DNA of 45,755 nt, the filler included, from Catajapyx aquilonaris (taxonomy: Eukaryota), in the NCBI GenBank assembly GCA_000934665.2. It is 2 parts of 2 records of this genome, joined end to end, with 100 filler letters (N's around TTAATTAATTAA, not from the genome) between each part and the next. Parts side by side here need not be neighbours in the genome. Positions count along the whole stretch, not along the records: positions 22,916 to 45,755 come from JYFJ02005804.1; 1 more part is not named here. One strand, written 5' to 3'. The stretch's first letter is position 1. Each line of letters opens with the position of its first letter. The translations under genes were made by a program, and so were the position numbers. Under the pieces are notes generated by a model. The model worked only from the letters and a program-made list of their open reading frames with translations, was not told where the DNA came from and did not search any database. Of this stretch, positions 3,861 to 45,755 are shown piece by piece.

Positions 3861-3908
3861 TAAAGTACATGGCAAAAAATCACAGGATAGGGATCATGTC
3901 TTTAATAT

Positions 3909-15185: not shown

Positions 15186-15187
15186 AA

Positions 15188-15330
15188 TGAAGCGGCCGTT
15201 ACCGGTCGCTGATGGTTTACCTCGAGTGACACACAGAGTTCTCAAGAAAACGTGTTCTTTTCTAATCTGTAACCAACTCTGTTTATTCAAACAAACTGCA
15301 ACAATGAGGTTGTCGGTAGCGACGGCTACA
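15188..15330 (-). repeat. 5' LTR (143 bp)
   Basis: Copy of 13893-14037 with a few substitutions and a 2-nt indel. Confidence 0.93.
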
Positions 15331-17800
15331 CAATGCATTGAATTGACTGTTTTCAGCGCCTAAACTGGCCTAAATGCCTACCTATTTGATGAGAATTTTT
15401 AGAACCTAAAAATCCGTTCCTTAGTTATAATAAATGATGCTTAGTAATTACCTCAGGGTTATGGCTATGGCCAATCTGTGACCCGGGGAGAGAGCCTCCC
15501 TGCTCCGGGGATATTTCATCTGTTTGTCGTGCAGCAAGTGGGTAAGCATGTCAAACAATTCCGATGACGTTCTAGCATATCTCCGAAAGTAATCGCGACA
15601 CACAGTTATTATGCTAATGTTTAAAGCAGGAAACCATTCATTTTTGTAAACAACATCGGGTACTTCACTTCAAACTCAGCAGTGTATGTTCGAAATGTTC
15701 ATCCGGCATTCAAAGAAGCGAATATATGAATGCAGAACAGACAACCCAAATCGGAACATTTCGCTACGAACACACACCGGATATAGTTCAGATACTACAG
15801 AGATATAGTTCAGCGCATACCCGAGGAATCGTGTAATGCATTGCAGACCTGTAAGTTCAAATGAGTAAGTGTTATAATATTAGAAATCAATCGTTTCTAT
15901 GTTTTCTTGCTTTTTCCTCCACCGCCATTGTTAGCACCTTGTAGTAATCTATAGGTCCTATTATGTCTGACTGAAAAGTTTTTAGATTCATGACTTGGTC
16001 AGTCTGCCTTTGTCGATTCTGCGGTTTCGTCCAGCCATTGCATTCTTATTATTGGCCTACAAAATGTAATCGGCCAAGGTCTTGGATTTGTCCAAATGAC
16101 ATTTTCTTAATTTCGGCTAACCTCTGGCGTTAAGGCGTAATTGCGTCCATTCGTGGATGGGCTGTGAGGTTTTGCAAATAATCCCGCTGTGTATGGAAGG
16201 TTGATTTAATGTTTCTGCTAATTCACTTTTAATGCTGGCAATATTATTTAGGCAGTTGGTGTGGTCTCTCAACTTGTCTCAGAGTATGTCGTGCACAAAA
16301 CAGGAGCTTATTCCTTCGATATGTGAGATTACCCGAATGTATACAATCCCTGTCTGTAATCGTCGTATTGTTGAATGTATTGAGACAATCAGATTAATTT
16401 CACCTGATAATAATTATCATGGTTCCATGCGCACATTAAAAGTTTTATTGTCACAAGCAAGATTTATGTTGATTTCGTAATAATTGAGAAGACATTTTCA
16501 CTCTTGATTTAGACGCAAGATGGGCACTTTATGGTCCTTTTTTGTGTTCAGTAATTCTTGAACATCTGATAGGGTTTGTATGTTGCATCAAAAGGGCCTG
16601 GACCGGATTCAAATACTTCGCATGGTGAAGCATACGAGACAGGGATTGCACAAGACTGCATGTCCCTATCTGGCATTACAAGTAGTAACAATGTGTCCGA
16701 CGTCGCGATTGTTGGATGTGCTATTTGCCTGTGACTTTAGTTGTACCTTTTTTTAGCGTGGAGAAGGGTTTTCCTTCACGTATATTCCACCCTCGTACTG
16801 ATCCACTCGTACTGGTGTACTATCATATTTATGGTGGATTTGCTTATTTGTGACTGGAGGATTTTTTTTTTTTGTCTCAATTTGGTGTTGTATGACAGTT
16901 TATATTTGGAGTAGTTATTGTTGAAGGTTTTTAAATTCATATGGGTGAAACATCATCTTATTTTCAATTGTCTAATCATTTTCGCCAATGATTGCGCTGG
17001 TTAAAAATACACGTCAGCGTCGCCCACCGCATGGTTTAACATCATTGTGTAGTTTGTTTATTCCTGATGTAAGAGGCTGTTTTATGTCTTGTGTTTCAAC
17101 TGGTGGTTAACAGGATATATTTATGGAACGTTTCTTAGATTTACATGACCTAAGATGAAATGCCCTATAGTCAAGCCAAAGACTTCCGGCCACATCAGTT
17201 CTGCACTTTTCGGATTGTGGAAGAGAATTTACCGACTGGTGCACCGCCTTTGCATAGTGTCTAGTTAACCTGCAATGAACCCGTCGGAATTTACCTTTGG
17301 CTCGTCTAAATGATGGTGGATTTTTAATTAATTAAAAATTTATTGCGGTAGGCAGATATAGCCTTGTTTGCTTTGCGTCCCTTGACCGCTGAATTAAACA
17401 CGTAATCAGTATTTCAGTCATATCTGGATGTTTTCTAAGTCACCTCATATTTTAATGGAGTCGTCTAATGGTCTTCTTGCTTCAGTTTCATCAATACTGC
17501 TGGTTACATTTTGATTGCGTTTTCCCGGATGAGGTGATATCGTAATATGCATAATAGACTGACAAGTGTGCGATGCGTTTCATTTGATTAAGTCTGCCAG
17601 GAGACTTTTAAAAAAATTTAAAAAATGATGCGGTTGTCAATACATGGTATTGTCAGACTTATGTTAGTCTATGATAATTATTGTGCGTTGACTGCGTGTC
17701 CACAATGGTACTTTCTCCAGGGTTTTCCGAGCCGTCGGACAGTGACATGTATGCGGGAGATCTAAGCCAACATGGTTGTGTATCAAATTGTTTGATCTTC

Positions 17801-26149: not shown

Positions 26150-29100
26150 ATGGACAGTTTCTATAATGGACGACATGTCCCGGTCACAGGAGGGGCAGGA
26201 TTCTTGGGGAAAGTTCTAGTTGAAAAGTTGCTTCGGGCCACTCGCATTGATGCACTTTACGTGTTGATGCGTGAGAAGAAAGGTCAGAGTCCACGAGACA
26301 GATTCCAGCACGTGCTTCAGGACAAGGTATACGGAATTTGTGCCTGTTGTTTGCTGTATTGTAATACCCTAGGTCATGGTTGATGGCTTTGAATGGGTGG
26401 GCCAGAGAGAGACTGGAGTGACCTATATCTATGAGAGTTTGGTTTTCAGTTTACGTGCATGGCCAATACTATAAAATCTCGCGAACCTTTCAGCTGCTTG
26501 GCAAGCTGCGAGAGTCCGATCCCGAAGTCTTGTCCAAGATCCGTGTCCTGGAGGGAGACATTGAGCTTCCAGGGTTAGGGCTCGGCCATGAGGACAAGAT
26601 GATGGTCACGGATCAAGTGTCGGTGGTGTTCCACTGCGCTGCATCAATACGATTCGATGACACTTTGAGACGAGCGGCACGCTCCAACCTGGAAGGAACC
26701 ATTAACGTCGCAGATTTATGCAAGGAAATGACAAAACTAGAGGTGAGAATTTATTACTTATACCTGCAAAGGGAATAAAGTGTAAATTACCATTATTTTG
26801 TAATCACATTTGCTAACTTAGCAAGCAGTGTTGCCAAAATTGGGCGACGCGTCGAACTTAGTTTGACAGAAGCGACAACCTTCTTTTATCGTGAAAAATC
26901 GAGGCAAATTGGTAAAATACCATGGCACACAAAGGAGACAGCCAAGAAAAGCCTGCTGCGATGTGTTAAAATATGGCTGATGTTTAAAAATACGCCCGTC
27001 AAAAAACAAACAAACTTAACAACCTGTATTCTACGCAGTACTTCACATGATTAAGGCGAGTCATACGTATTTAAGAGGCATATATAGTTCTCAGTGGTGT
27101 GCCGACAAAGGCAGACCTAACAATGACGGAAACAAACTAACTTGTATCACAAACACACATTCAATGATTATTATTATCGGCACGAAAACAAAAGATGAAC
27201 TACCGTATACTTATTTTGCAGGCTTTGGTCCATGTGTCCACCGCATATGCCAACTGCGACAGACGAGTGATAGAGGAAGAAGTGTGCGAGGCTTCCATCC
27301 CTCCCAGGAAGTTCCTCAAGTGCCTCGACCTGATGGATGACGACGTGATCCAAGCAGTGTCCTCCGAGTGAGTATGCAAACTAACCACTAACTGAACCTA
27401 TAGTCTACACCTGGTCCATTACTTTGTTGGCAACCGACACACCGGCACAAACTGATTACATCATTTCGTGGAGTCACTTACACAGCACTGAGAAAACCGT
27501 GCCCGTTCCGTACGTTGTATATATAAGAAATATTTTTCCAATATGATTGCTGGTTTGATGATAAAAATGTCTCAACCGAAATAGTCATATAAAAGAGTAA
27601 CCCTGCTTATGGCTCTCAGTTTGTCACAAGAACTTATTGCAAGTTTCTGAAGGGCAAGCCGAACTCCTACGTATTCGTGAAGTGTCTGGCTGAGAATGCC
27701 ATGAAGGAAGAGCATCAGAAGGGTCTTCCTGTCACCATTGTGCGGCCCTCGATAAGTATACGAGACAACGGTTCTATATAACCTTACATTGACCATTTTC
27801 ATCATGCAATGAAAAGCAGTCTTCTGATATAAGACCTAATTTATTTTGTTTATTCTCCGTGTAGTTTTCCCTACTTATCAAGAGCCAATAAATGGATGGT
27901 GCGACAACTACTTTGGAGTTGTCGGCATGTCCTACGTGATAGGAATTGGCTTGGTGCATGCAGTTTTGCTGGATAACAGCAAAATGGTGGATATTGTCCC
28001 CGTGGACATGACTACCAATATTATTATAGCTTCTGCCTGGCATACCGCAACGTTCAAGTAAGTATGGGTCAAGAAATAGTGTCTTGGTGTATATGAGGGA
28101 AAAGTTAAGCGCGTTGAAACAGCGCAGTGTATTATTCAGTAAGTTATGCGATCATATGTCGAGATTTTTCTGCGGTCAGATTCTTAACTATACAGGCGGG
28201 ACTGCTGCAGTAGGTACTGGTGTAAAAAGAATAATTACATGCTCTACTCGATTAAATAGTTTTCGATTTTTCGCTCTAATACTTTTAAACTAGATAGCAA
28301 TGAGTGCACAGCTTGTAATGGCAACACCTAACGAGGTATTTCCGTAACAGCATATGTAGTGTATGGTGTAGTGCACTGTACGAGTCCACAGCCCTTTTCC
28401 AATAACGCATATTTCAGGCGGAAGGAAATGCAGGTGTATAATTATGCCAGTGGCAGCCTGGTCCCGATTTCCTGGGGTGACTATTGCTACTGGATGTATC
28501 ACTGTACCAACAAGAATCCTCTTCCCGGGTATCCTTGGTTCCTCACAACCAGCCGCAGAGAAATATTCAAAATTCTGGACTATTGCTTTCACTACCTCCC
28601 AGCGAAAGCGGTTGATGCCATCAACAACTTACGAGGAAAAGAATCTGGGTGAGCAGACAACAATAATAATTAATAAATTCTAAGCTAAATAGAAGGACAT
28701 CAACATAAAATCTACTGTAGTTGGAAATAAATTACATTTTACACAGTATAGACTATACTTGTGCTTTTACGAGCCTGACAATATCGCAGTATTTCTAAAC
28801 CTGGCCTTCTCTCGGATGATACTATGATATTACAGTACTTCATTAGTGTATTTAGTGAATTAGAAATATCTGAAAAATGTAGAACGAAGAATAAAGTCGC
28901 GACTTTTTTTAAATTGCGTACATTCTCTACTGATGTGAATTGGTACTTCGTAGATGAATTGAACCTTATGTTTTCCAAGCAGTCGCCTTTGGGACTGTAA
29001 TATAATATTACTCCCCAAGCAAAAAACTGGCAATATGATATGTCCCATTGTCCCTCAAAAGTATTTCTTCGAGGATTAGAATAAACAATGGTTATCACCG

Positions 29101-31362: not shown

Positions 31363-34300
31363 ATGACAAATGCACAAGACGGAAAAATGGAAGGCGGTTT
31401 GTACGTGGCACTGCTGCTCCTGATAGCAGCTGAAGGTACTTACTACATCGCACTTACACAACTGCAAGGTGCATTCGTAACCTGTATTTTTTAAATATTC
31501 CAGGCACTTTGGCTGATGGTGACTCGGTTGTACCAAAGCCGAAGCGCGATGTGTGGGCGCAGATGTCCGGAATCAAGACCAAGGTGGGCTACCTGGAGTG
31601 GTTGATCGACGGATGCGCCACGAGTCCTCATCAAGTCTTGTATCACTGCAAGTCCACACCCATCCAGGAGAGGGATTACCAGTCGTTTGATGGATTCGGA
31701 AACAGCGAGGCCTTTCCCACCAGAGGAATGGCCGGTAAGAACTCGCTTTACACTGGAGCCAAAACCGGAGGTAAAGCAATGGGATGCGTTCCAGGATCTT
31801 TTCCATCTCCTCGTTGCACAGCCGCAATTATTTTGTTAGGTTGTTCCTGATTATGTACACTATATGGATAGATGGAAAAGTGGACTTCGGTTTTTCTTTT
31901 TCCCATCCATATGGTATCGGTCGTGCGAAAATCATTGAAATTTTTAATGTTTAAAATTGCAGCAGGAGACGTCAGTAATTACTCGTATTTGCATCCCTTT
32001 TTAGTTAAATGGGAAGCTTTAAGTACTAAATAATTTGCAATTTATTAGACTTTATAAAGTTAAACGCATGGAAAAGTTCTCAGAGACTATGAGGATTAAA
32101 GGAAAAGAAAGTATTTGTGCTATTCGGCATAATATATAAGCTTATGCACAGTAAATGTGACACCCTCGGTAAGTTTAATTTTTCATAAATATATTACTGA
32201 CCGATTAATAAAGCTCTTAATTGCTGTATTAATTACTCTATTAATAATAATCATGGTACATCATGGTCGTACATCTTGGCAAAAACTATTCTGGAAGTTC
32301 TCATTTCGTCACACTCCTGTTTAGAATCGCCTCGTTCAAACGCTCTAAAAAAAAACGTTTCCAACACAATTTTGAACAGGATCCAAAATGAACCAGAACA
32401 TGGTGTACCAATACACGGACCGGGTGTCTAAACCAGGGATGTTGGATGCTCCAAACCCCCTGAAGCTGAGCTACGAGCTGTTCAGGCACGGAAAAATCAC
32501 GACGAGTAAAACCCATAATCGTCTCCTCGTCACAGGAAGGAATCAACTCCTCCACTTTTTCGGTGAAGTATACCATTTTCATATTAAACTTGTCAGCATA
32601 GCGGGATGATAGGTTGGGATTGCAAAGACACTTGTCCTAATCGCTTTTGGGGAACTACAATCCGTTTAAACCAAAGAACGATATGACGTCACGTTCAGCT
32701 CCGCCTCCACCCGGCTCTTCCTTCCACTAATGTCCCCGAATAGCTCTGCAAGCATACTACTGCGCGTACTCAGAAAACACGGTTGGTATGACGTCAGATC
32801 GTTCTTCGTTTAAAAGACTGCAAGTCGCACCAATGCGCACATGCCCAGCTTCCATCATAATAATCGAGAATATAATCGCCAAAATGGGAAGGGTTTCTGT
32901 TCAATGTCTTGATGCAATGTGACATGTGACCGTACCGATAGGCAAGTACGTGGTAGAGGAGCTGGTGAACACCAGGACGATGTCGTGTCCGATGGAGTTC
33001 TTCCACATACCGATCCCCAAAGGCGTGGAGCCCTGGAGCAGCAGCGGTGCCGAGTACATGCCGTTCGTTCGGGCGCAACATGACCCAGGGACAGGGACCA
33101 GCAGCCAGAACCAGCGTCTGCAGGTCAACAAGGTCACCCCTTGGATCGACGCCAGCTCGGTGTACGGCCCGTCTCGCATGTGGGCCAACATCCTCCGGAC
33201 ACGGCACGACGGAGAGATCGAGAAGGACGGGATGCTGGCCTCGGACGGCTCGGGCCTCTACCCAGAATACAACTGGATGCGACTGCCCTTCAACAACCAG
33301 CCTACCTGCGTCAACCATACCTTCTACGAGCAGGTCAAGTTGGGATTCCCCACCGGACGCCTGCACGGGTTCGGACACGTCAACGGGAACGACAACCCGG
33401 CCTTGTTCGCCATCTCCACCGTCTGGTTCAGGTGGCACAACGCCCTGGCCGACTACTTCAGGGCCAAGCACCCCAGCCTCAGCGACGAGGTCATCTTCCA
33501 GGAGGCCAGGAGGTGGGTCATCGCCACCATGCAGAGGGTTATCATGTACGAGTGGTTCAATACCACCTTCACCATGCCTCTCCCGCCATACCAAGGCTAC
33601 GACTTCTCCAACGATCCGCAGATGGAGCTTGCCGTGGCCTCCGCCGCACTCAGATTCGGACACATGCACATTCCGAAAGGTCTGTAAAGTCCTTTAAGCC
33701 AAAGAACGATCTGACGTCACACCAGCTGTGTTTTCTGAGCATGCGCAGGACATGATTGGAGGGACGAGCCGGGTGGAGGCGGGGCTGAAAGTGACGTCAG
33801 ATCATTCTTTGGTTTAACGGACTGTATTGTATAATCCTGGGACACATACAGAGTACGAACCATCATGATAATAATTATGATGTAATACATGATGTGCAGT
33901 GATGAACATGAGGCTTCGGGCATCTTTCTCATGCATCGGACAACCTTACACTGTGGCGGGAGCAGTGGCGAGCAAGACAGGCATCCGGGTGTGCCAGTCG
34001 TACTGGACAGGTCAGGACACCTTCTACCACGACCTGATGAAGCCATCAGGAACGGCCTCCCAGGTGGAACCACCCTACCTCCTGATGGGTCTGGCCAACC
34101 AGCAGGCCAGGTCGGAAGGAAACGTCATGGAGGAGGACGTCAGAGGTTAGGCACTTTACAAAAAAATTCTGTCACTTTAACATCACCCTCTGACACGTTT
34201 ACCACCAATTATTGTTAGAGTATTTGTACGGACCGATGTCGTTCAGTCGACGCGACCTGGCCGCCATTGACATTCAGAGAACCAGGGATTTCGGGGTGCC

Positions 34301-37300
34301 GGACTACAATTCGTGGAGGAAGCACTTTAATTTGCCCGTGCTGACGAAGCTCGAAGAGATTGCTGACACTATTGATGGCCAAGTGGTCAGCAGGGAGGTA
34401 TAGTCACATGTGTCTCTTGTTAATTTCATGCACAATTTTGTTAAACCTACTGGAATCTTCTGCTGATTTTGTTCATTGAGATCCTGCGGAAGGCCGACGA
34501 GATTTACGCAAATGGCAAGATTGACTTGTACGTGGGAGGGATGCTGGAGAGCAGGGGTGAAGTGCCAGGCCCTCTCTTCGAGGCCATGATTAGAAGCTAT
34601 TTCGCGGCAGTCAGAAATGGAGACATGTATTGGTACGAGAACAAGGACAACGGGTAAGTGCGAAAACCTGCAATGCCAACGTGCAATTTATTCGTAGACA
34701 CACAAAATACGCGTAATAAGGAATTCTTCGCAGATTGTCCTTTTCGCACTGGATACGTGTTTGTTTTCTTACCAAAGTACTCCACAGGCGCTTCTCGGAC
34801 GAGGAGATCACCCGCATCAACCAGGTGAAATTCAGCGACATCATGCTGTACGTCACCAACATGGTCGCCGATGACATCCATGAAGACGCGTTTGTTCTGC
34901 CGCGCTTAGGTATAAGCATGTTATCACGGGTGATCTTCAGTTACCCAGTTACGGTATTGCATAACCAATATTCCTCCATGTGGCAGACGACCTGAGGGAT
35001 AACCACAAGTGCAAGCTAACCTTTTCCAAATCGACGAAGACTTGCTACAGGGAAGATTGGTCCGGGGCAGGCGAGAAGTGCTACTTCATTCCCGATGCCA
35101 ACGGTACGGACGAGGTGGAGCCATGCAGCCCATTGAAGCAGTACTCCTTCTTCGCCGGGAACGAGATCAGCATAGCCTTCACCGCCCTTTTCTTCGTTTC
35201 CGTCCTGGCTGGCCTCATGGGCACGCTCAACTTCAAGATCGCATCATCCTCTCAGAAGTGGAGCAAGAGGGCTCCGGAGATGCTGGGCCTGGAGCAGATG
35301 GCCTCCTCCGTGGATAAGAAGAGCTTCACGGCCATGGAGTTCCAAGGGATCAAGAGGGGCTCGCGACAGGTCATTGTGGTGCTCAACTACCATGAGAACA
35401 CCATACAGCTGTGGGGTCCCCTGGGAGGAGAGCTGAGGACGGTGCCGCTCAGCCTCTTCAAAAAGGTCTACATCATCCTGGGATCCGACGGACAGCACCT
35501 TATCGTGAAGGTTCCTTTCGAGTACGATATCGTGCTAGAGTTTGTGCTGGCGTCTCACAGGGACAACGTGATGACTGCGCTGGGTAGTTTCTTCAGCGAC
35601 AACAACATTGCTTACCTCTGCCAGAACCTGAAGCTGAACGCAGCCTTGTCCCAGACTGTGACCTTCGAGGACCGGCAGGCCATCTTGAAGCGGTTCTTTT
35701 CGGTCATTATCCTCCAGACCCAAAAAGTGTACAAGACCACGGAGGCTGTGCTGAGTGCCAGGGAGATCCGGAAGAGGTACGCTCAGGTCGAGGACGTGCA
35801 TCTGAACGAGATCGAGTTTGCTGAGGCGCTCGGGATGAACCAAAATTCCAAGTTCCTGAAAAAGGTGAGCCTCGAGTTTCAGAGGAATGCTGGCACAACA
35901 GGCTAAAAGCTATGAGCGAACACTTTGTACGGACGTGGACAGTGCACCACCCTGTATACGCTTGGGAATTAATTGCAGTACAAAAGGCTTCTTCACTCAT
36001 TTCAGCTGTTCCGGTTGGTGGCAGGCACAAAGGCGTCGTACATCAGCGTGCGCGAATTCCTCAACTTCTTCCTCACGTTCAGTCGAGGTAACTCTAATGC
36101 ACCAAATGAACATTCTCGGTGGCGAAAAGAGCAAGAGTTCAATCAAATCAACTCTTTCTTCCCCTGTAGGACCGGCATTGCGAAAAGTCATGATGATGTT
36201 TCAGATGTACGACACCAAGGGAGCGGGCGTGCTCGGTTTTCCCGAGTTTAAGACCTTGCTAATGTGAGCAAATCTTCGACATCGGGGCTGGGGAAAACAG
36301 CGATGGGTTGTTGGATCCACTCGCGCATGCGCATTCCCACTGGTAGAACTCGATGTGTTAATAAGAAGCGCGAAGTGAGCATGCGCGACTGGAGCCAACA
36401 GTCCATCGCGTTTTATACTCCTCCAAATTGGGGCAAATTGCATACGGTACCCATCCATGTATTGCAGAAATTTGGCAGAAATTTCCATGCCCGGCATCAA
36501 TCAAGGGGACCTCAGTTCGGTGGTGGATGGGCTGATGAAGGACGCGGGAATCTATCACGTGGTAAGTTCAACGGAATTCATTTTTATTTATTTAGCTGTT
36601 TCGGCAGCCTTCACCTAAATCGCGGTCAATCCTTCAGAATGAGTTCAAACCCAGCGATCTGGAGTCGCTCCTTCAGGTGTATCGAAACGTCCTAGGATAC
36701 GCTCACCTGGACTTGTACGGGCCCAACATCCCCGAGACGGGTGGATCGGTGGCGATGCCGTTCAATCAGAGGCACTTGAGCTACTTCGACGCTGCCATGA
36801 TGGCGGCCTCAGACCTGTACGATAAGTCCCCCCTGTACGAAACGATAAGTTTCAATGCCTTGTTGCCGTAGCTCATGCGACTCAAATGGGATCATTTGCA
36901 CGGCCACTGGAGTGGAGCATCAGAATGCATATCTATAAAAATTTTATATATTTGATATTAACACATCCTGTGTATATTGTGAGCTGGAAAAGTAGCAAAC
37001 ATGTATAGCAGACCGGGTACAATTTTCTCATGCCTGTGTAAATGATCCTGCGTGGAATTACCCATATTCTTAATGCAAGTAATGATCAAGCACGCATTTC
37101 CGGCCTCTCCCTTTCCCCATTTATTCACAATAATACATTTCCCCTCAGAACTAATGCTCCGAGAGATGTCTTGAATGACCCAGCAAACACTGCCATTGTG
37201 TTAACGACAAAGACTAAGAAGAAGTCGCCCTTAGGTCAGCTGCTGTTTCAAATCAAGCTCGAATGGAATAAGTACATGCTGCTGTTAATAGTGGTGCTCA

Positions 37301-39545
37301 TTAGCATGGCCATCGCAGGCTCCTCTTTCTATGGTTAGTACATACACAACATCTCTTCCGCGGTATCCCGGTTGAATCAGCGATCTTTACTGGGAATGAT
37401 AACCGTTGTTGTTTTTGCAGGGTACGACAACACCCCAGAGCAGAAGTCCTTGCATGAATTTGTAGGAGTGGCAGTAGTGCTGTCCAAGTCCACGGGCAGT
37501 GCCCTTCTGTTCCTGTACTGCCTGCAGCCCCTCACAACTTGTCGGAACCTGAACTCCTACCTGAGAGAAACCTTTTTCTCCAGCGTAATACCATTCGACT
37601 CGCTGATTGAAATACACAAGACGATCGCTTGGATCGCGAATGTGTTTGGTGGTCAGTAGCATGTACTTTTATCCGTTGGACTATAAGTTGGGCTATACAA
37701 TATTAGCAGCAAGGATAGTGGCGTCATGTCTGCGCAGACATGTTCTGTGCTCACTTGTCTATGTTGATCTTCCTTTCATCTATAGTGATACACTTGATAT
37801 GCAGCAACGTCCATTACGGTTTACTGTCATCCAAAGAGCCAATCTACGTGGATTGCCTTGTGGACTACATGAACCTGGAGTAAGTTATTGCCACCAAGAG
37901 TACATAATGGGGCAGCACATAAGATTTCAAAGAGGTGTAGCCAACCCCTCAAAACAAAACTTGACATTCACTATGGGAAGGAGCCAATCAGATGATAAAA
38001 TGTGTACACTCTGGTTTGCCTGCAGGAGCCACCAGCGAGCGAACTTCAACTTCTGGTTTTGGGGAACTGTAACAGGAATAACAGGAAACATCATGTTTGT
38101 TCTTCTGCTGATCATGACCGCCTACGCCCTGGACAGGAGCCGTCGTAAAGCATTCCGCTGGTTCTGGATATCCCACATGGCCTACATCCTGTTCTATCCG
38201 ATCCTTCTGCTACACTACCTCGGCGACGCCACGGAAGTCAGTCAAATCGTCCTTTCCTAACTGACCTTTCACCTTCGACGCCCACTCCGACTTTTTTTTC
38301 CTTAATTACAGGCACCACCTTCCCTGGGATTCATGTTGATCCCCTTGTTCATGTACATTGTAGACCGCATAGCCCTAGTGAGTCAGCACAAGGTCGCATT
38401 CGACGTGGTGGAATTTGAGCTGCTTCCTTCCAGTAAGTATAACTGCAGCACTGTGCACTAATCTATTGTTACTTCCATCGTTCCACCTTCTTGTCGTGGA
38501 CAGACATGGTGAAGCTGGTGGTCCGGAAGCCATTGCACTTCACCTTCAAGGCCGGTCAGTGGATCCGCTTGGCCTGCACTGCCCTCAACTCGAAGGAGTA
38601 CCACCCTCTGACCATCGCTTCTTTGCCACTGGACAACCGCATGGAATTCTACGTGCAGGTGGTCGGGCCATGGACCTACAACCTGAGGAGCGTCTACAAC
38701 CTGCAGAAAATTCGGAGGGAGAAGTATTCCAAGGTGCGTGTCACGGAGGGATCATCTTGCGGGTCATCTAAATCAACTATAGGGCAACTTCGCCTTGGGG
38801 AATAGCAGGGAACATTTCTGAGCATTGTCTTTTTTTTGTCCAGGTTTTCATCGAGGGTCCGTTCGGATCACTCAGCCAGAATTGGGGCAATTACGAGGTT
38901 TCCATCATAATTACAAACGGAGAAAAGGTCCTTTCGTTCATCTCTGTGCTGAAGGAAGTTGTGTTTCTGGGCAACAAGAGGCTTTCCATATTATGTAAAA
39001 AGGCAAGTTTCATCTTAAAGTCACACTTCCGGTGGAGATGAAAACTATGCAATTATTATTCCAGGTGTTCTTCATATGGTGCACGAGCACTCAGAAGCAC
39101 TTCGAGTGGATAGTGGAGATCCTGCGAGAACTGGAGAGCATAGACCACAAACGGATTTTGTCCACTCACATGTGCATCACAGAGGCGACGGACAAGTACG
39201 ACATCAGGACCGTCATGCTGTACCTGTGCGAGGAGCAGTTCCACAAGGTCAGAGACAGGTCGCTATTCACGGGGCTCAGGATGAAGACGCATTTTGGGAA
39301 ACCCTCGTTCAGGACCTTCTTCACTTCAGTGCGGAACATTTTTAAAGTGAGTCGTACTAAGTGACTTTACTCACTCACTTTTCTGAATGTGTTTTACTTA
39401 CACTGTGTTCATTGTTGGGCAGGTGAGGTCGTACGGAGTGTTCTACTCAGGGGATCACCAGACCAAGAATGATATCACCAATATTATTAATAGCCTCAAT
39501 GAGGCGTCAAATGTGGGCAAATATGAACTTATAACTGTCAAATGA
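31363..39545 (+). CDS. Dual oxidase (Duox)-like protein, 22 exons, ~1638 aa, atypical NADPH-binding domain and EF-hands
   Basis: Exons 31363-31435, 31504-31734, 32380-32562, 32942-33679, 33900-34145, 34219-34397, 34481-34653, 34788-34909, 34987-35864, 36006-36087, 36170-36263, 36468-36561, 36638-36825 (donor uncertain), 37149-37333, 37421-37651, 37786-37879, 38026-38236, 38312-38432, 38504-38733, 38844-39002, 39065-39346, 39423-39545. Total 4917 nt, all phases compatible. Signal peptide, peroxidase homology domain (TPWIDASSVYG, WFRWHN, ALRFGH, FSRRDLAAIDIQRTRDFG), TM1, EF region, ferric-reductase TM domain (TCRNL..LRETF, IPFD..IHK), FAD region (GQWIRLAC, EYHPLT, GPWT, EGPFG), RSLFTGL..THFG. 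Confidence 0.93.
32658..32820. mobile_element. Tc1/pogo-type MITE, copy 1 (Duox intron 3)
   Basis: TA|CAATCCGTTTAAACCAAAGAACGATATGACGTCA ... TGACGTCAGATCGTTCTTCGTTTAAAAGACTG, ~33-bp TIRs; homologous to 33687-33824 in inverted orientation. Confidence 0.85.
33687..33824. mobile_element. Tc1/pogo-type MITE, copy 2 (Duox intron 4)
   Basis: TA|AAGTCCTTTAAGCCAAAGAACGATCTGACGTCA ... TGACGTCAGATCATTCTTTGGTTTAACGGACTG|TA. Interior GAGCCGGGTGGAGGCGGGGCTGAA is the near-exact reverse complement of copy 1's TTCAGCTCCGCCTCCACCCGGCTC. Confidence 0.88.
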
Positions 39546-40200
39546 GGTGGGTCGTGACCTGAATGTGCAAGGTCAGCTCATTTTGAACGAAGCCTGTTCA
39601 TTATTGGCAAATCAGCGTTATTTAAAAAAAATTAGAGCATTTGTTAACTATGTTATTGTTAATAATGACGTGTTTGGCACATTATTGTCTCAAGAGACGC
39701 CATTTTAAAGTTAATAGTTGTTATATAATGTTCATAATGTGATGTCGACTGTGTCAGCTTTGAAATATTCTTGTACGCTATCAAAATAAAAATATGTTTT
39801 CTATGATCTTGCAGTACTGATTGTTGAAAATACACTAACACAAAAGAACTGAGCAAAAGGCGTAACGGGTGAATTGGCCAAGACGTTATGCATGGATCCA
39901 TACTTCAATTGCTCCGAAGGTGTAAAGTGACGTAGGAATCAGGTTTTTCCTCTATTTGCAAACTTTTTGCATTGTCTAGCGGCTTAATCAATGCCTTATT
40001 CACATTTAAGCTGATTAACAAGATGGGAAAGGAGTGGCACAGGGCCCTGTGAACGTTCCCATGTGTGAAGGACGCCCGACATATGAGGCGACTTTGCATA
40101 CACCCAGGTAAAAAGTACGCGACACAACTCGACGAATAATTGCAGCAATCACACGCGATACTAGTCAGCTTCTCGCGTAATAACAGTGATCAACGCAGAA

Positions 40201-40389
40201 ATGGGAGGTATTTCTGATTTTTATTCCGGGCGTAGTGTCTTGATTACTGGAGGCACCGGATTCTTAGGGAAAGTTCTCCTGGAGCACCTTCTACGAGCTT
40301 GCCCACAACTTGAAGCATTGTGCCTAGTAGTTCGTTCCAGGTCTGACCTCGATGCTGGTCAGCGGATCGAACTGATGCTACAGGATAAG
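40201..40389 (+). CDS. Isolated FAR first coding exon (alternative exon 1 of copy B, or orphan exon)
   Basis: MGGISDFYSGRSVLITGGTGFLGKVLLEHLLRACPQLEALCLVVRSRSDLDAGQRIELMLQDK followed by a GTAAGG phase-0 donor. No other FAR exons seen before 42199. Confidence 0.8.
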
Positions 40390-42198
40390 GTAAGGCGACC
40401 AAGTATACTATAGGGTCTCACCTCTTCTTTATTGTTTTAGAATTATAATTGAGCTAGGACCAGTAACGGTCAAAATCACCACTTATAACTCACCTTCAAA
40501 GTGTAGTTAGAGTTACGTACATCGTTGGAAATCCAATTAACATTGTTGATAAACACTAAAGTAATTACTGCAAAGTAATATTAAAAACAAGCAACTTACA
40601 GTCAAAATGATTTCAGAAGTTCCCAGTGACTTCCGCAAAAATTATTCTAACTTCCTGAACTTCCCTGACTTCCATAAGACTCATAATAATTCCTATGACT
40701 TCCTCCAAGGTGTACGAGTGACTTCCTAAGTGACTTATCTCTTGCCCCAAAATAATCAGCTACAGGATGTCAATGTACAGTACTTCACGACCTTGAATGA
40801 TACTATAAGATTTTTTGATATGTCTAAAAGTTAAACGTACTAGATATTAACTCAGAAGTAACAATGATTACAGTCAAAATTGAAATGACTTGGAATATCC
40901 TGCACATTAGCAAATGTTATGTAAAAAACGGTACTCTTTCGCTTTAATACCCTCATAATAAAAATATTGTAAAATATTTATTTTAAAGGCTAATTTTTGA
41001 GTCGCTTTTCCTACATTATGGCATGATACAAACGGTAAGATTTTTATAAAGTGACATCCAAATGTTGAAGAGAAGAAAAATGTCCTGTTGATTTTGGGCA
41101 CTTAGCTAGTAATCGTCTAGTTGCCTATCGACCAGGAATGCAGGATATTACTGTCAGAGATTTTCCAATGTGTTGTCATCCTCATGTGAAGGGCATCATA
41201 ATACACATTGCATTATTAAGTCTCAAGGAGACAGACGGTACTTGTCGTATAGGTATAGCTCAACACATCAGGAGTGAATGCTCACTTGTGATGGCCTCCT
41301 ATGATGATGCTAATGCTAATGCATTTTGCAATATACGTTACATTATGTTATAATTATTAAGAACAACACACATTGAGTAGTTTTGCTGCAAACCTTATGG
41401 AGTTCAGCACGCTAATATGCGACTTTTCCTTATTAGAGTACACACCAAGAAGTACTCGTCACCAATGTAGGCAAAGACAAATAGTGGGGACTAAACTTAA
41501 TATACCATGAAAGTGTAAATCAACATCATACAATTACAGTATTTTATGACCCTGCACCTGCACTTTCTAATGTGTAAAAATAATCACGACAAAAAAAACG
41601 TTCCGAGTCAAAGTAACAAACTTCGTCTTCTTCTAATCACCATAAACCTATTTACCGTCTCTCTTCTAAAACCAACGCCGATGAAGTCATTACATTCGCT
41701 ACTTTTAGAGTACTTAAGAAAACATACTGCTCAAAGAGAGAGTTTATGTCCTTGAAAGGAGTTGATCCCGCTCACTGACCAATATTTACTACTAATTAAG
41801 ATATCTCAGAGGCTGTGTACCTGCCCATAATTTCCAATATTGTCACAGTGACTGTATACCGTTACTAATGGATGCTCGGCCGAAATCGAAAGTGACATGC
41901 CGCCCACTTGTCACTATATTTGAGGCACGCTCAGCATTGCACGCAAATATTTAAGTGTGTCGTAAAACGGGCGAGATCTCCCTTTTCATTTTCCTCTTTT
42001 TTTTCTCTCTCTCTCCTAGCCCCTCCCTTTCCCTTGGAATATTGTTGTAGCCAAAAAGAAAATTCTTCAGTCGGTACACTCTTTTATTGGCTACAGAACC
42101 TCACGGTCTCCCTTCGCGATTTGTCTCCAATCACTTGGCTGCTGACTCATCTGGCGCTTTATATCGTGCATTGCAGCCTTGGGTACATATACTATACC

Positions 42199-44989
42199 AT
42201 GGTCGAGGCACCATCAGACATGGACAGCTTCTATAATGGACGTCATGTCCTAGTCACAGGAGGGGCAGGATTTTTGGGGAAAGTTCTAGTTGAAAAGTTG
42301 CTTCGAGCAACTCGAATTGATACACTTTACGTGCTGCTGCGTGAGAAGAAAGGTCAGAGTCCACGAGACAGATTCCAGCACGTGCTTCAGGACAAGGTAC
42401 TGGATTTGCTTATGTTCTTTGATATCCGACAGTAGATGAAGACCGGATTTAACAATGCCTAGGGCAGTACCAAAGTTAACTGAGTTTAATCTATTGATGT
42501 ATAAGCCCTGAAATTAGTGTCAGGGTCAAAAATGGCATTCAATTATTACCACATAGTCCTTTGATACGCATTGGTTACTGATGTTCGTGTTAAAACCATG
42601 GAGAAAAACCACCCTATGCGCCTTTTTTGCCTTCCTGATTGTCTTGCTTGGGTCTTAAATGAAAGTGGAAGTGTTCGAATATGATGGTCCGCAGTGATTA
42701 ATTATTCATACAATGCATGTGCATTGACAATGAGCCTCACGTGTTAGTACACGATGTACCGTTTTGGTCCGATCCTGACCTTACCCCTCTTTTCCAACCG
42801 CGGGATATGATTCGCATCAGTTTATTTTTATCGTCTTAATTTTATGCATAGCAAGTACCGTGTCTGCCAGCACTAAACCCACCGGGTGTAAAATACGAAA
42901 GCGTCACAACTTATTACATGCACGCTTACGAAGGAGAACGATATGGTAATTCCCACACTGTTACATTCACACCAAGGTGAGGCCTGGCGTATTGTTATTT
43001 TGAACTCGAGTGTATCCTATTTCGTCTCCATAATTTTTTTGCATGTCATGATGGGCATGAAGGGCACTCGACTCAGAAAGATGACGAGTGTGTAATCGAA
43101 GTTATAGGTCAGGGTTGATGGCTCTCAATGGCCGCAGCAGAGCGACACTCGATTGATATCAATCACTCGTTAGTTTTCAATCTTTACGTATAGGAAAGAG
43201 ACAATGACGCATAAATTGAACCATGAATAGCACATTATGAACATTATGAAAATAATATCTCGCGAACCTTTCAGCTGTTTGGCAAGTTGCGAGAGTCCGA
43301 TCCCGAAGTCTTGTCCAAGATCCGTGTCCTCGAGGGAGACATTGAGCTTCCAGGGTTAGGACTCAGCAATGAGGACAAGAAGATGGTCACGGATCAAGTG
43401 TCGGTGGTATTCCACTGCGCTGCATCAGTACGATTCGATTACACCTTGAGACGAATGGCACGCTCCAATCTGGAAGGGCCCATTAACGTCGCAGATTTAT
43501 GCAAAGAAATGACAAAACTAGAGGTGAGAATTACTCTTTATGTTCACAGGGATTAGAGTAAAGTATTGCAGGAATTGATTTATTTAGTCGTTTGAAATGA
43601 AAGTGAATCCTATAGAATGGGTCATTTTCTATGAAAGATTTGGGTTCCATATCAAGTATAGAGCTAGGAAGAATATTCACAGTAGTTAATCTGGCGACTT
43701 CTGTGAGTACATATTAATCGGTCTCATGTTATATACAGTATGCTTGGATTATACACCCTTAGTCATTTTTGACTATAGCACACTGGCGATTTTATGGAAA
43801 GAGCAATGTTTAATCCTGAAATATTTAAGCGATGCTTTAAAATACCCCGGTACACAATAAACCTCTTGGCAAAATAAATGGCCAATTTCGAAGAGTTAAA
43901 ATACGTCTGCTGTTGAAAAATTCCAGACCTGGCACACATAAAAAGCTTATTGACAGCAACTTTCACTTTATGATTAAGGCTCAGTCTATTCAAAAGGCAT
44001 CAACAAGGTGTTCTCAGGAGTGTGCCGACAAAGACTGATGTAAAAACAGCTACTTGTCACACAAACACATTGACAAATTTACGGAAGGATTGTTGTATAA
44101 AACATATTGCTTATTTTGAAGGCTTTGGTGCATGTGTCCACCGCATATGCCAACTGCGACAGACGAGTGATAGAGGAAGAAGTGTACGAGGCTTCCATCC
44201 CTCCCAGGAAGTTCCTCAAGTGTCTAGACCTGTTGGATGACGATATGATCCAAGCAGTGTCCCCCGAGTGAGTAGACAGAGTAGTTATCATTGGGTACAT
44301 TGACATATCCTCAAAATGAACAGGACCTGCTCTGGACCCGGTTCACTAACATGATTTGCAGCCCACAGACAAACTGATCATAATATTGTGATTGAATGGA
44401 ATCATTTACATATAACAGAAAAACCGGACTCGTTTTGCAACTATGCCATTGTCTGGTCAATAACCATCTAGTTGACCCTGAGATGTGTAAATGGTCCCAT
44501 TGTTTTATTGTGAGGAACACTTATATTGCAGGTTTCTGAAGGGCAAGCCGAACTCCTACATCTTCATGAAGTGTCTGGCGGAGAATGTCATGAAGGAAGA
44601 GCACCAGAAAGGTCTTCCTGTCACCATAGTGCGGCCCTCGATAAGTACGAGTCATACGACATACAGCATAACTGAAGTGATCGTTTGTGTTTAAATTCCG
44701 GTTTGCCATATACTACGTACCTTATCAGTAAATTCATCGCTTCATCATGAAATAAAAATTTAATTTGCTTTTAGGTCATACTGATTTTTTTTCCAGTTTG
44801 CCCTACATATCAAGATCCAGTAAGTGGATGGTGTGACAACTATTACGGAGTAGCTGGCCTCTCCTTCATGATAGGAATGGGCTTGGTCCGTGCAGTTCTG
44901 CTGGATGACAGCAAAATGGTTGATTTTGTCCCCGTGGACCTGACTGCCAATATTATTATAGCCTCTGCCTGGCATACCGCAACTTTTAA
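42199..44989 (+). CDS. Fatty acyl-CoA reductase, copy B (exons 1-5; presumably continues beyond the window)
   Basis: Exons 42199-42396, 43275-43523, 44122-44267, 44532-44644, 44797-44989. Same intron positions as copy A and near-identical coding sequence; TGGAGFLGK, NSYIFMK, IVRPSI, DFVPVD. Confidence 0.92.
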
Positions 44990-45755
44990 GTAAGTACACT
45001 AGTACAGTATGGGACGGTAGGGCGGTAGGGGGTCGAGAGAACAATAAATGCGAGTTCATATGCACGTGGGAAGTGGTGCGATAAATTATTTTAAGGTACG
45101 GTATGAAAAACCGTCATACCATTATGAATAACCCGAAATGCAAAATAATGTTTAAGCAACTCTTTAAAACAAGAGAAGATTTGAATGAGGTCGATGTTAA
45201 AGGGCATTTCATGATATATTCCAGTCCATTACTTTGAACAGCCACAGCATGCGTGAATGCGACGTAACTTATATTACTGGCATAATTTTTGGATGATAGA
45301 GCGTCATAAAAATGTGACGTATAAAATGGCAGAGCCTTGGGCAGAGCATTAATATTATTGTCTAAAAAATTGCACTGTGTGAACGTGTAGAAAAATATCA
45401 CATAAAATGTGGTCTGAGAATACTCATTAATGAGAAAAACCTGCCGCTAAAACTGTCTGATCATGTGATGATTAAATTAGTTATATGCAGGGTGTTCCAA
45501 ATTCATGGGTAATGTCGCCCGATAATAGTTATTTTTGTAGCTTGTTGTGCCCCTAACCAGGTGCTAAATTCGATAATAACTGCTATATTCAACTCCCTGG
45601 GAGTGTACTGCAAAAAGGTGGTGCACTACACAACAGGGAAGGTATATAGACTATACATGGTGTCTATTGTAACTCTGCAAAGACTTTCAGGGATAATAGA
45701 GGGGACCAAGACAAGTATTTTTGACATAGGAAACCGTGTCCGGAAACGCCATCTA

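What the first reader, a model, noticed from the sequence alone, without database searches (positions are those of the whole stretch)
38844..39545. Intact Duox-like gene whose canonical NADPH-binding motifs are all replaced: candidate Duox pseudoenzyme or neofunctionalised paralogue
Seen: the 22 exons splice into an uninterrupted ~1638-aa frame with GC-rich third positions. In the dehydrogenase domain the NOX/DUOX motif GGGIGVTPF reads TNGEKVLSF (38913-38939), WVTR reads WCTS, VFSCGP reads VFYSGD (39438-39455), and the terminal ENF is replaced by TVK*. Flanking structural residues (EGPFG..W..YEVS, QKHFEW, DIRTVMLYLCE, RSLFTGL, THFGKP) are well kept. Known: GxGxxPF, the WxxR arginine, CGP and the terminal ExF form the NADPH site of FNR-family/NOX enzymes. 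Inference: loss concentrated on cofactor residues in an otherwise preserved gene suggests a maintained protein that no longer oxidises NADPH, e.g. a scaffold, a regulatory partner of true Duox/DuoxA, or a heme protein using another electron donor.
Basis: partly seen in the sequence, partly recalled or inferred. Interest (0 to 1): 0.9.

Follow-up and report, generated by a model that had tools for sequence, protein, structure and literature searches.

The report
Dual oxidase paralogue without NADPH site
An arthropod-like genome carries an unbroken but very divergent copy of the hydrogen-peroxide-making enzyme Duox that has lost the residues for binding its fuel (NADPH), its calcium switch and its oxygen site, so it is probably a kept, non-catalytic relative rather than a working oxidase.

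Summary
A 22-exon gene (31387-39545, + strand) splices into one open frame of 1630-1644 aa with full Duox architecture. Aligned without gaps to human DUOX1, GGGIGVTPF reads TNGEKVLSF, the NADPH 2'-phosphate arginine R1424 is Ser, R1495 is Lys, SCGP is YSGD, and the ..ENF end is absent. No alternative exon with canonical motifs exists in the window. Independent contigs of the source sample give the same DNA.

Both EF-hand calcium loops are degenerate. The oxygen-reducing pair R1087/H1148 is Lys/Ser. All four haem histidines, the FAD motif (HPLT, GPWT) and the PHD-membrane disulfide cysteines are kept.

The gene lies in the arthropod Duox clade on its longest branch (2.42 against a median of 0.99), at about 30% identity to every Duox. 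No orthologue was found. Within-sample differences are 7 synonymous to 4 non-synonymous (p 0.004).

Similar degenerate paralogues exist in weevils and a horseshoe crab. The best reading is a maintained pseudo-oxidase. Expression and the presence of a canonical Duox in this genome are untested.

The parts
31387..31435 (+). Exon 1: start codon and hydrophobic signal-peptide-like N-terminus
   Evidence: Read from the sequence; phase-1 donor joins exon 2 in frame; hydropathy peak at residues 1-19.
31504..34653 (+). Exons 2-7: extracellular peroxidase-homology domain (31504-31734, 32380-32562, 32942-33683 or -33679, 33913 or 33900-34145, 34219-34397, 34481-34653)
   Evidence: Spliced alignment. PF03098 An_peroxidase hits in exon 4 (E 1.2e-46), exon 6 and exon 7. 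Aligns to DUOX1 105-336, and the Cys matching C118 is kept. 68 of 83 near-invariant columns are kept.
34788..35864 (+). Exons 8-9: end of the PHD, extra membrane helix M0 (residues about 687-711), PH-like linker
   Evidence: Two in-frame junction solutions exist (34929/35040 or 34909/34987). No Pfam hit. tblastn to canonical Duox gives 25-27% identity.
36006..36867 (+). Exons 10-13: EF-hand module with degenerate calcium loops, and a linker
   Evidence: Alignment: EF1 loop AGTKASYISVRE and EF2 loop DTKGAGVLGFPE, against canonical D-x-D-x-N...E loops. EF-hand_1 scores only 21.9 bits, below its cut-off of 25.4.
37149..38432 (+). Exons 14-18: six-helix ferric-reductase membrane domain. Four haem histidines are kept. 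The oxygen-centre Arg is Lys and the His is Ser
   Evidence: Gapless alignment to DUOX1 1079-1138 puts Lys on R1087 and His on H1130. PF01794 scores 26.4 bits in exon 17, below its cut-off of 28. Hydropathy.
38504..38733 (+). Exon 19: FAD-binding subdomain (HPLT, GPWT kept)
   Evidence: PF08022 FAD_binding_8 at E 3.7e-12. 22 of 28 near-invariant columns are kept.
38844..39002 (+). Exon 20: EGPFG motif and the degenerate NADPH glycine loop (TNGEKVLSF at 38913-38939); GC donor at 39003
   Evidence: Gapless alignment to DUOX1 1365-1416. 9 of 17 near-invariant columns are kept.
39065..39346 (+). Exon 21: core of the NADPH-binding subdomain. WCTS stands in place of W-V-T-R (R1424 to Ser), and R1495 is Lys
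   Evidence: PF08030 NAD_binding_6 at E 4.8e-07. DUOX1 1418-1508 at E 3.6e-31. 22 of 31 near-invariant columns are kept.
39423..39545 (+). Exon 22: last strand (GVFYSGD for GVFSCGP), a divergent tail and the TGA stop; no ..ENF end
   Evidence: No PDB chain is matched at E up to 10 except chance hits. 3 of 7 near-invariant columns are kept.

Best explanation
This is an intact, selectively retained but fast-evolved paralogue of arthropod dual oxidase that has become a non-catalytic 'pseudo-oxidase'.

Shown:
- It keeps the whole Duox body plan: signal peptide, extracellular peroxidase-homology domain disulfide-stapled to the membrane domain, M0 helix, six-helix bis-haem domain with all four histidine ligands, and an FAD subdomain.
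- Both ends of the electron path and the switch are gone. These are the NADPH glycine loop, the 2'-phosphate arginine, the Cys-Gly-Pro strand and the C-terminal aromatic end; the Arg/His pair of the oxygen-reducing centre; and 5 of the 8 side-chain calcium ligands of the two EF hands.

Inferred:
- The protein still folds, is inserted in the membrane and probably still binds haem (and perhaps FAD) as structural cofactors.
- It cannot take a hydride from NADPH, is not calcium-gated and does not reduce oxygen.
- Its retained function most likely lies in its best-kept part, the extracellular peroxidase-homology domain, and in assembly. It could be a non-catalytic subunit or competitor in Duox/DuoxA-type complexes, or an extracellular-matrix-facing scaffold. 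This would modulate, rather than perform, peroxide-dependent cross-linking or defence.
For: - Gene integrity: 22 exons, no stop, every ambiguous junction has in-frame solutions only.
- Composition: exon GC3 is 0.75 overall, against intron GC of 0.34-0.51.
- Branch length: the terminal branch is the longest of 26 rows (2.42 changes per column, median 0.99), yet the frame is open.
- Within-sample differences: of the 24 differences classified (9 further rows lying in high-copy intronic repeats were left out), 11 are exonic, 7 synonymous and 4 non-synonymous. Sites are 1088 synonymous and 3802 non-synonymous. Binomial p is 0.0038.
- NADPH site by gapless alignment to DUOX1: G1387T, G1388N, I1390E, G1391K, T1393L, P1394S; R1424S and R1495K. 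R1424 and R1495 bind the NADPH 2'-phosphate (PMC7794343, passages read).
- SCGP reads YSGD and the C-terminal Phe column reads Ile.
- Oxygen centre: R1087K and H1148S. The roles of these residues are from PMC7794343 and PMC8129163.
- EF ligands: EF1 keeps 1 of 4 side-chain ligands and EF2 keeps 2 of 4. The ligand list, and the statement that mutating them abolishes calcium activation, come from PMC7794343.
- Kept residues: the equivalents of H1130, H1144, H1225 and H1238, HPLT, GPWT, R1214, D1128E, and the cysteines matching C118 and C1165.
- Retention of near-invariant columns: PHD 68 of 83 and FAD 22 of 28, against exon 20 at 9 of 17 and exon 22 at 3 of 7.
- No second glycine-loop or C-terminal exon exists in 45.7 kb. 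A regex search found none. 9 of 9 loop queries hit exon 20 only at E of 3e-9 or better, and all other hits have E of 0.12 or worse.
- Parallel cases: 4 of the 65 hit rows I printed (of the 150 listed) have a substituted glycine loop, three from weevils and one from Tachypleus. These also lose the Pro, the CGP Cys and the terminal Phe.
Against: - There is no expression evidence at all. No RNA run was listed.
- No orthologue was found, so there is no dN/dS.
- The polymorphism test rests on 11 sites seen between contigs of one sample, and none of them lies in exons 19-22.
- GC3 of exons 20 and 22 together (52 of 94) is lower than in the rest (1150 of 1537, Fisher p 9e-5). This could mean that this end is drifting freely, or that exon 22 is not used.
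- Several splice sites are weak.
- EF-hand degeneracy alone does not prove inactivity. Edens et al. 2001 note poorly conserved calcium ligands in the active C. elegans Duox1 (PMC2196470).
- The membrane domain keeps only 21 of 36 near-invariant columns, so haem binding is inferred, not shown.
- I could not check whether the genome also holds a canonical Duox or DuoxA.
- The proposed partner or scaffold role is pure inference.
Confidence: 0.55

Rival explanations
1. Unexpressed or recently released pseudogene. A duplicated Duox served some function for a long time, is now decaying, and has not yet acquired a stop or frameshift.
For: No RNA holder was listed and no orthologue was found. It has the longest branch in the tree. 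GC3 of exons 20 and 22 has fallen to 0.55. Some splice sites are weak and one donor is GC. Ce-Duox2 is a precedent: a duplicate lacking part of the NADPH site, with no significant expression (PMC2196470).
Against: About 1630 codons over 22 exons carry no lesion, despite about 70% sequence divergence from every relative. Exon GC3 is still far above intron GC. Segregating differences are biased to synonymous sites (p 0.0038). The haem ligands, the disulfide pair and 82% of PHD invariant columns are kept.
Confidence: 0.17
2. The protein is still redox-active but rewired. It would be a bis-haem (and FAD) membrane protein taking electrons from another donor or partner reductase and passing them to an acceptor other than oxygen, or acting as a haem-based sensor.
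For: All four haem histidines and the FAD motifs are kept. So are the membrane-domain residues that contact FAD in DUOX1: R1214 is kept, D1128 is Glu and R1131 is Lys (roles from PMC7794343).
Against: In this fold FAD is reduced only through the NADPH subdomain, which is degenerate. The Arg/His oxygen centre next to the outer haem is also lost. The C-terminal aromatic residue that caps the flavin is absent. No new domain or insert that could dock another donor was seen.
Confidence: 0.15
3. It is a working NADPH (or NADH) oxidase of a fast-evolving lineage that binds the nucleotide in an unusual way. It could be the organism's only Duox.
For: The overall architecture and the haem and FAD residues are retained. 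One canonical relative (a mayfly protein, P0001) already has Lys for the R1424 arginine. The own genome could not be searched for another Duox.
Against: Six of nine glycine-loop positions are changed, including charged Glu and Lys inside the loop, and the Pro is replaced. R1424, the CGP Cys and the C-terminal Phe are all lost together. The oxygen-centre Arg and His are lost. All 18 canonical Duox proteins from chordates, molluscs, crustaceans and insects keep these columns.
Confidence: 0.08
4. It is an artefact: a mis-assembly, or a wrong gene model that skips the true exons.
For: The model is built by homology only, and four junctions have two solutions. The window holds 89 N.
Against: One contig per run spans 33884-39650 with 0-2 differing letters plus one inserted base in X4. 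The N runs lie outside the gene. There is no other match to glycine-loop or C-terminal queries in any frame of the window. The degenerate motifs lie inside exons that otherwise align without gaps to DUOX1.
Confidence: 0.03

Closest known systems
Canonical animal dual oxidase (human DUOX1-DUOXA1, PDB 7d3e/7d3f; arthropod Duox such as the crayfish and insect proteins P0035, P0037, P0002)
   Same: Same domain order and homology throughout: An_peroxidase, M0, EF module, ferric-reductase domain, FAD_binding_8, NAD_binding_6. The four haem histidines, the FAD motif and the PHD-loop C cysteines are kept. The gene is placed inside the arthropod Duox clade.
   Different: Identity is only about 30%. The NADPH glycine loop, R1424, the CGP Cys, the C-terminal ..ENF, the R1087/H1148 oxygen centre and most EF-hand calcium ligands are replaced.
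C. elegans Ce-Duox2 (Edens et al. 2001, PMC2196470, passages read)
   Same: A Duox duplicate predicted not to have a working NADPH-oxidase domain while keeping the peroxidase-like part.
   Different: Ce-Duox2 is a recent copy, 94% identical to Ce-Duox1, disabled by a stop codon that removes the C-terminal end. No significant expression was seen. The gene here is full length, old and highly diverged, with point replacements at the cofactor positions.
Degenerate Duox paralogues found here: weevils (CAG9759534.1 Ceutorhynchus, XP_050314844.1 Anthonomus, XP_076267168.1 Rhynchophorus) and horseshoe crab (XP_076336192.1 Tachypleus), all annotated simply as 'dual oxidase-like'
   Same: All are full-length Duox-like proteins. 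The glycine-loop Pro, the CGP Cys, the C-terminal Phe and the R1087 arginine are all replaced.
   Different: They are not orthologues by similarity, at 23-25% identity to the window protein. The weevil set is nested within beetles next to a canonical weevil Duox (support 98-100). They keep EF1 calcium ligands. Two of the four have lost haem histidines (Anthonomus 2, Tachypleus 1) and three of the four have lost the FAD-motif His; the window protein keeps all of these. A common origin with the Tachypleus copy is not rejected (AU p 0.17).
X. tropicalis Duox2 and C. familiaris Duox1 as noted by Kawahara et al. 2007 (PMC1940245, section 9 read)
   Same: These Duox isologs were flagged as probably unable to make ROS because a conserved cofactor residue is missing.
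   Different: There a haem histidine (Nox2 His-115) is Leu and the NADPH and FAD sites are intact. Here it is the reverse. Those cases were not followed up and may be sequence errors.

Membership tests
NOX/DUOX family, Duox subfamily (by descent) | Domain architecture: N-terminal animal-haem-peroxidase homology domain, extra helix, EF module, six-helix ferric-reductase domain, FAD and NAD(P)H subdomains | tested here: met
   PF03098 in exons 4, 6 and 7; PF08022 in exon 19; PF08030 in exon 21; PF01794 at 26.4 bits (cut-off 28) in exon 17; EF-hand_1 below cut-off in exon 11. Hydropathy. Full-length alignment.
NOX/DUOX family, Duox subfamily (by descent) | Groups with Duox proteins in a tree | tested here: met
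   It falls inside the arthropod Duox group (SH-aLRT 85-92, not starred) with a very long end branch of 2.42. The exact sister is unresolved.
NOX/DUOX family (as an enzyme: NADPH oxidase) | Four haem-ligating histidines on helices 3 and 5 (H1130, H1144, H1225, H1238 of DUOX1) | tested here: met
   All four are His. H1130 is fixed by a gapless alignment.
NOX/DUOX family (as an enzyme: NADPH oxidase) | FAD motif H-P-F-T and G-P-W | tested here: met
   It reads HPLT and GPWT. Canonical members also vary at the Phe (HPIT, HPMT).
NOX/DUOX family (as an enzyme: NADPH oxidase) | NADPH glycine loop G-x-G-x-G-x-T-P-F | tested here: not met
   TNGEKVLSF stands against GGGIGVTPF of DUOX1 1387-1395, with 6 of 9 positions changed.
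NOX/DUOX family (as an enzyme: NADPH oxidase) | Arginines binding the NADPH 2'-phosphate (R1424, R1495) | tested here: not met
   R1424 is Ser and R1495 is Lys. Roles are from PMC7794343. The third, R1036, could not be aligned (one search gave no hit).
NOX/DUOX family (as an enzyme: NADPH oxidase) | Cys-Gly-Pro strand and C-terminal aromatic end (..ENF) | tested here: not met
   It reads YSGD and ends ..ITVK. Exon 22 matches no solved chain.
NOX/DUOX family (as an enzyme: NADPH oxidase) | Oxygen-reducing centre Arg (M2) and His (M3, four after the outer-haem His) | tested here: not met
   R1087 is Lys and H1148 is Ser. Roles are from PMC7794343 and PMC8129163.
Duox subfamily (regulation) | Two canonical EF-hand calcium loops (D, D, N, E side-chain ligands in each) | tested here: not met
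   EF1 keeps 1 of 4 and EF2 keeps 2 of 4. The ligand list is from PMC7794343. The active C. elegans Duox1 also has poor EF loops (PMC2196470).
Pseudoenzyme (catalytically dead but retained homologue) | Loss of catalytic or cofactor residues within a conserved fold | tested here: met
Pseudoenzyme (catalytically dead but retained homologue) | Maintained by purifying selection | tested here: inconclusive
   The frame is open on a very long branch. Differences are 7 synonymous to 4 non-synonymous, p 0.0038, but from one sample and 11 sites. There is no orthologue for dN/dS.
Pseudoenzyme (catalytically dead but retained homologue) | Expressed as RNA and protein; no catalytic activity on assay | not testable with these tools
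   No RNA run was listed. This needs the bench.

The most novel reading that the evidence does not exclude
Arthropods have repeatedly (weevils, horseshoe crab, this lineage), or in part anciently, turned spare Duox copies into full-length, membrane-anchored 'dead oxidases'. These keep the extracellular peroxidase-like head and the haem-binding core but cannot use NADPH. They would act as non-catalytic partners that shape where and how much peroxide the true Duox/DuoxA complex delivers for cuticle or gut-barrier cross-linking. This would be a class of NOX-family pseudoenzyme that I did not find described in the papers searched.
Probability: 0.3. Interest if true: 0.75.

Novelty: new variant of a known kind. 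Interest (0 to 1): 0.55.

Why it matters
Duox enzymes supply the peroxide for cuticle, eggshell and gut-barrier cross-linking and for mucosal defence. Every member described so far is treated as an oxidase.

A full-length, apparently maintained copy that has lost electron entry, electron exit and the calcium switch, while keeping the haem core and the extracellular head, would show that the Duox scaffold has a function apart from making peroxide.

Similarly degenerate copies sit unremarked in public annotations of weevils and a horseshoe crab under the name 'dual oxidase-like'. This suggests a recurrent route and warns against counting such genes as ROS sources in comparative genomics.

The pattern of kept and lost residues also gives a natural experiment on which residues the fold needs (haem ligands, FAD motif, PHD-membrane disulfide) and which only catalysis needs.

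Tried and rejected
- Own genome search for a canonical Duox or DuoxA: no genome is held for this window.
- RNA evidence: no RNA holder was listed for 37300-39700. Run X5 (kind unknown) laid only 4 short pieces on intronic repeats.
- Orthologue searches. An exhaustive HMMER search with exon 21 gave 432 hits at E of 0.001 or better, 0 at E of 1e-30 or better, and a best identity of 56% on a 131-aa fragment. Word-indexed searches found 2 proteins with exon 21, 11 proteins of at most 41% identity with exon 4, and none among 3108 candidates with exon 9.
- Alternative-exon idea: rejected.
- Solved-structure matches for exons 2, 3, 14, 16 and 22: none, or chance only. R1036/E1039/N1040 and the PHD dimer contacts R50/E41 could therefore not be mapped.
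- Earlier notes of this scan: nothing on this window, on look-alike sequences, or on a Duox gene in this genome.
- Literature. 'dual oxidase' with 'pseudoenzyme' gave 0 papers. 'dual oxidase' with 'catalytically inactive' and 'paralog' gave 3 papers, none relevant by title or abstract start. The Duox / NADPH-binding / arthropod / paralog search gave 62 papers, of which 20 were listed. I opened two of them (PMC5372347, PMC1940245) for passages and found no arthropod dead Duox.
- Supplementary tables of those papers were not opened and may list exceptions.
- Clade test: whether the window gene and the Tachypleus copy form one clade was neither supported nor rejected (p-AU 0.17).
Full report
**What is there**

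The stretch 38844-39545 holds the last three exons of a 22-exon gene on the + strand, 31387-39545. I built the model by a spliced alignment of the window to two canonical Duox proteins and then inspected the junctions.

- The base model is 4893 nt, or 1630 codons, with a single terminal stop.
- Four junctions (4/5, 8/9, 13/14, 16/17) each have a second solution. Every solution is in frame, giving 1627-1644 aa.
- Exon GC3 is 0.51-0.85 and intron GC is 0.34-0.51.
- Intron 20 has a GC donor with the extended consensus AAG|gcaagt. It is the only donor that keeps the homologous frame.
- Pfam finds An_peroxidase in exons 4, 6 and 7, a sub-threshold EF-hand in exon 11, Ferric_reduct in exon 17 (26.4 bits, cut-off 28), FAD_binding_8 in exon 19 and NAD_binding_6 in exon 21.
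- Hydropathy shows a signal-peptide-like start, the extra M0 helix and the helices of the membrane domain.

**The observation**

HMMER aligns exon 20 without gaps to human DUOX1 1365-1416 and exon 21 to 1418-1508 (E 4.8e-07 and 3.6e-31).

- On that register GGGIGVTPF (1387-1395) reads TNGEKVLSF, with 6 of 9 positions changed, including Glu and Lys inside the loop and Ser for the Pro.
- W-V-T-R reads WCTS, so R1424 becomes Ser.
- R1495 becomes Lys.
- In the multiple alignment GVFSCGP reads GVFYSGD and the protein ends ..ITVK instead of ..ENF.
- Exon 22 on its own matches no solved chain.

According to the human DUOX1 structure paper (PMC7794343, passages read), R1424 and R1495 bind the 2'-phosphate of NADPH. 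That the glycine-loop Pro and Gly positions are sites of NOX2 loss-of-function mutations is recalled, not checked here.

The DNA is sound. One Logan contig per run (three runs of the source sample) covers 33884-39650 with 0-2 differing letters plus one inserted base in X4, at single-copy depth.

No other exon could supply the motifs. A motif scan of all six frames found none. In a sensitive tblastn with 19 pieces of 10 canonical proteins, the 9 glycine-loop pieces hit only exon 20 (E 8e-13 to 3e-9), with every other hit at E of 0.12 or worse. The 10 C-terminal pieces hit only the end of exon 21, apart from noise.

The loss is not limited to the NADPH site.

- EF hands. In DUOX1 the ligands are D828, D830, N832, E839 and D864, D866, N868, E875, and mutating them abolishes calcium activation (PMC7794343). 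Here EF1 keeps only the Glu (loop AGTKASYISVRE) and EF2 keeps the first Asp and the Glu (loop DTKGAGVLGFPE).
- Oxygen-reducing centre. This is the invariant R1087 on M2 and H1148 on M3 (PMC7794343). The corresponding csNOX5 residues are Arg256 and His317 (PMC8129163). Here they are Lys (gapless alignment) and Ser.

Against this, the following are kept:

- all four haem histidines;
- the FAD motif (HPLT; canonical members also show HPIT and HPMT) and GPWT;
- the membrane residues that contact FAD (R1214 kept, D1128 as Glu, R1131 as Lys);
- both cysteines of the PHD-loop C disulfide, C118 and C1165.

Across 229 columns that are near-invariant in 18 canonical Duox proteins, the window protein keeps the following:

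| Region | Kept | Of |
|---|---|---|
| PHD | 68 | 83 |
| PH-like linker | 11 | 12 |
| EF module | 9 | 14 |
| Second linker | 0 | 1 |
| Membrane domain | 21 | 36 |
| FAD subdomain | 22 | 28 |
| Exon 20 | 9 | 17 |
| Exon 21 | 22 | 31 |
| Exon 22 | 3 | 7 |

The entry point, the exit point and the switch of the electron path are degraded. The cofactor-holding core and the extracellular head are the best kept parts.

**Relatives**

- The protein is 23-32% identical to every full-length Duox compared. Canonical Duox proteins of different phyla are 36-49% identical to each other in the same alignment.
- In a 26-row tree (1637 columns, IQ-TREE quick, LG+C20 PMSF) it lies within the arthropod Duox group beside the crayfish 'dual oxidase 2' and the insects (SH-aLRT 85-92, no starred set). 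It has the longest end branch, 2.42 against a median of 0.99.
- No orthologue turned up. The exhaustive search with exon 21 gave 0 hits at E of 1e-30 or better and at most 56% identity. The word-indexed searches gave at most 53%, at most 41%, and nothing. The window's own protein is not in those collections.
- Among the 65 hit rows whose upstream region I printed (of the 150 listed), 4 have a substituted glycine loop. Three are weevil proteins and one is a Tachypleus protein, all named only 'dual oxidase-like'.
- These four also replace the loop Pro, the CGP Cys, the terminal Phe and R1087. Unlike the window protein, they keep EF1. Two of them (Anthonomus, Tachypleus) have lost haem histidines and three (all but Rhynchophorus) the FAD-motif His.
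- The weevil set is a clade next to a canonical weevil Duox (support 98-100), so it is an independent, lineage-specific event.
- Holding the window gene and the Tachypleus copy together costs 2.03 log-likelihood units (p-AU 0.17). A shared origin is neither shown nor excluded, and long-branch attraction would act in the same direction.

**Live gene or pseudogene**

For a live gene:

- An open frame of about 1630 codons over 22 exons on so long a branch cannot be kept without selection for most of that time.
- Exon composition is still far from intron composition.
- One search listed 33 letter differences between contigs of the source sample and the window. I left out 9 that lie in high-copy intronic repeats (32720-32768, 33790). 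Of the other 24, 13 are intronic and 11 exonic: 7 synonymous and 4 non-synonymous, on 1088 and 3802 sites. The binomial p is 0.0038. Random errors would bias the other way.

Against a live gene:

- The polymorphism test rests on only 11 sites from one sample, and none lies in exons 19-22.
- No RNA run was listed.
- Some acceptors are weak.
- GC3 of exons 20 and 22 together is 52 of 94, against 1150 of 1537 elsewhere (Fisher p 9e-5; the exons were chosen after seeing the data). This fits local relaxation exactly where the NADPH motifs were, but it would also fit a tail that is no longer used.

**How it most likely works**

Shown: the residue pattern above.

Inferred: the protein folds as a Duox, with the peroxidase-like head outside, stapled to the membrane domain, and with haems (perhaps also FAD) bound as structural cofactors. 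It cannot accept a hydride from NADPH, is not switched by calcium and does not reduce oxygen.

DUOX1 works as a 2:2 complex with DUOXA1 in which the two heads pack against each other (PMC7794343). A dead copy could therefore join or compete in such complexes, or present its head to the matrix. This would tune rather than perform peroxide-dependent cross-linking or defence.

I put 0.55 on this reading as a whole. For the components, I put about 0.8 on 'no NADPH oxidation' and about 0.75 on 'maintained gene'. The partner or scaffold role is a guess.

Rivals:

- a recently released pseudogene (0.17);
- a rewired redox protein with another donor and acceptor (0.15), weakened by the loss of the oxygen centre and of the only route to the flavin;
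- an odd but working oxidase (0.08);
- an artefact (0.03).

**Comparison with what is known**

By descent this is a Duox. By the functional definition of an NADPH oxidase it fails five tested features: the glycine loop, the phosphate arginines, CGP and the C-terminus, the oxygen centre, and the EF ligands.

Precedents in print are thin:

- Ce-Duox2 is a 94%-identical recent copy truncated by a stop, with no significant expression (PMC2196470, passages).
- Two vertebrate Duox isologs have Leu for a haem histidine. They were noted in one paragraph as probably unable to make ROS (PMC1940245, section 9).
- An arthropod NOX survey does not mention such copies in the passages I read (PMC5372347).
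- My searches for a Duox pseudoenzyme or catalytically inactive paralogue found nothing relevant. Supplementary tables were not opened.

I rate it a new variant of a known kind. It is of moderate interest because it is unproven at the RNA and protein level. Interest is raised by the recurrence in weevils and a horseshoe crab.

Noticed in passing
window 39003-39064 (intron 20); 38995; 39019-39342: Intron 20 is a GC-AG intron (AAG|gcaagt). A GT eight bases upstream (38995) would join exon 21 in frame 1, which happens to be open across the whole exon. That would give a product with an unrelated Arg/His/Gly-rich tail.
   Followed up: partly
window 32665-32816 and 33685-33826 (introns 3 and 4): Foldback repeats of about 150 nt with a TGACGTCA core sit in inverted orientation on both sides of exon 4 (arms 84-89% complementary). 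Summed contig depth there rises from about 30 to as much as about 3000-4000, so this is a high-copy MITE-like element.
   Followed up: partly
window 26422-28058, 40165-40410, 41896-44990 (+ strand): The Duox-like gene is embedded in a tandem array of fatty-acyl-CoA-reductase-like genes (PF07993 NAD_binding_4 hits, E down to 2e-22), with near-identical peptide stretches in the copies on either side.
   Followed up: partly
window exons 20 and 22 (38844-39002, 39423-39545): GC3 of these two exons together is 0.55, against 0.75 in the other 20 exons (Fisher p 9e-5). Exon 21 between them has 0.79. Exons 1 and 14 are also low (0.56, 0.58).
   Followed up: yes
proteins P0038, P0153, P0155 (weevils) and P0050/P0161 (Tachypleus): Public 'dual oxidase-like' annotations carry a degenerate NADPH loop, no CGP Cys and no terminal Phe. 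The oxygen-centre Arg is replaced, and in some a haem histidine is lost. The weevil copies form a clade beside a canonical weevil Duox.
   Followed up: partly
window about 22.8 kb and 25.8 kb: Two runs of N (89 in all) appear as X in the six-frame translation. Both lie upstream of the gene.
   Followed up: no
window 14001-16000: GC rises to 0.50 with a negative GC skew (-0.14). Long open frames rich in Pro, Ser and Arg appear on several frames, which looks like a repeat or mobile element.
   Followed up: no
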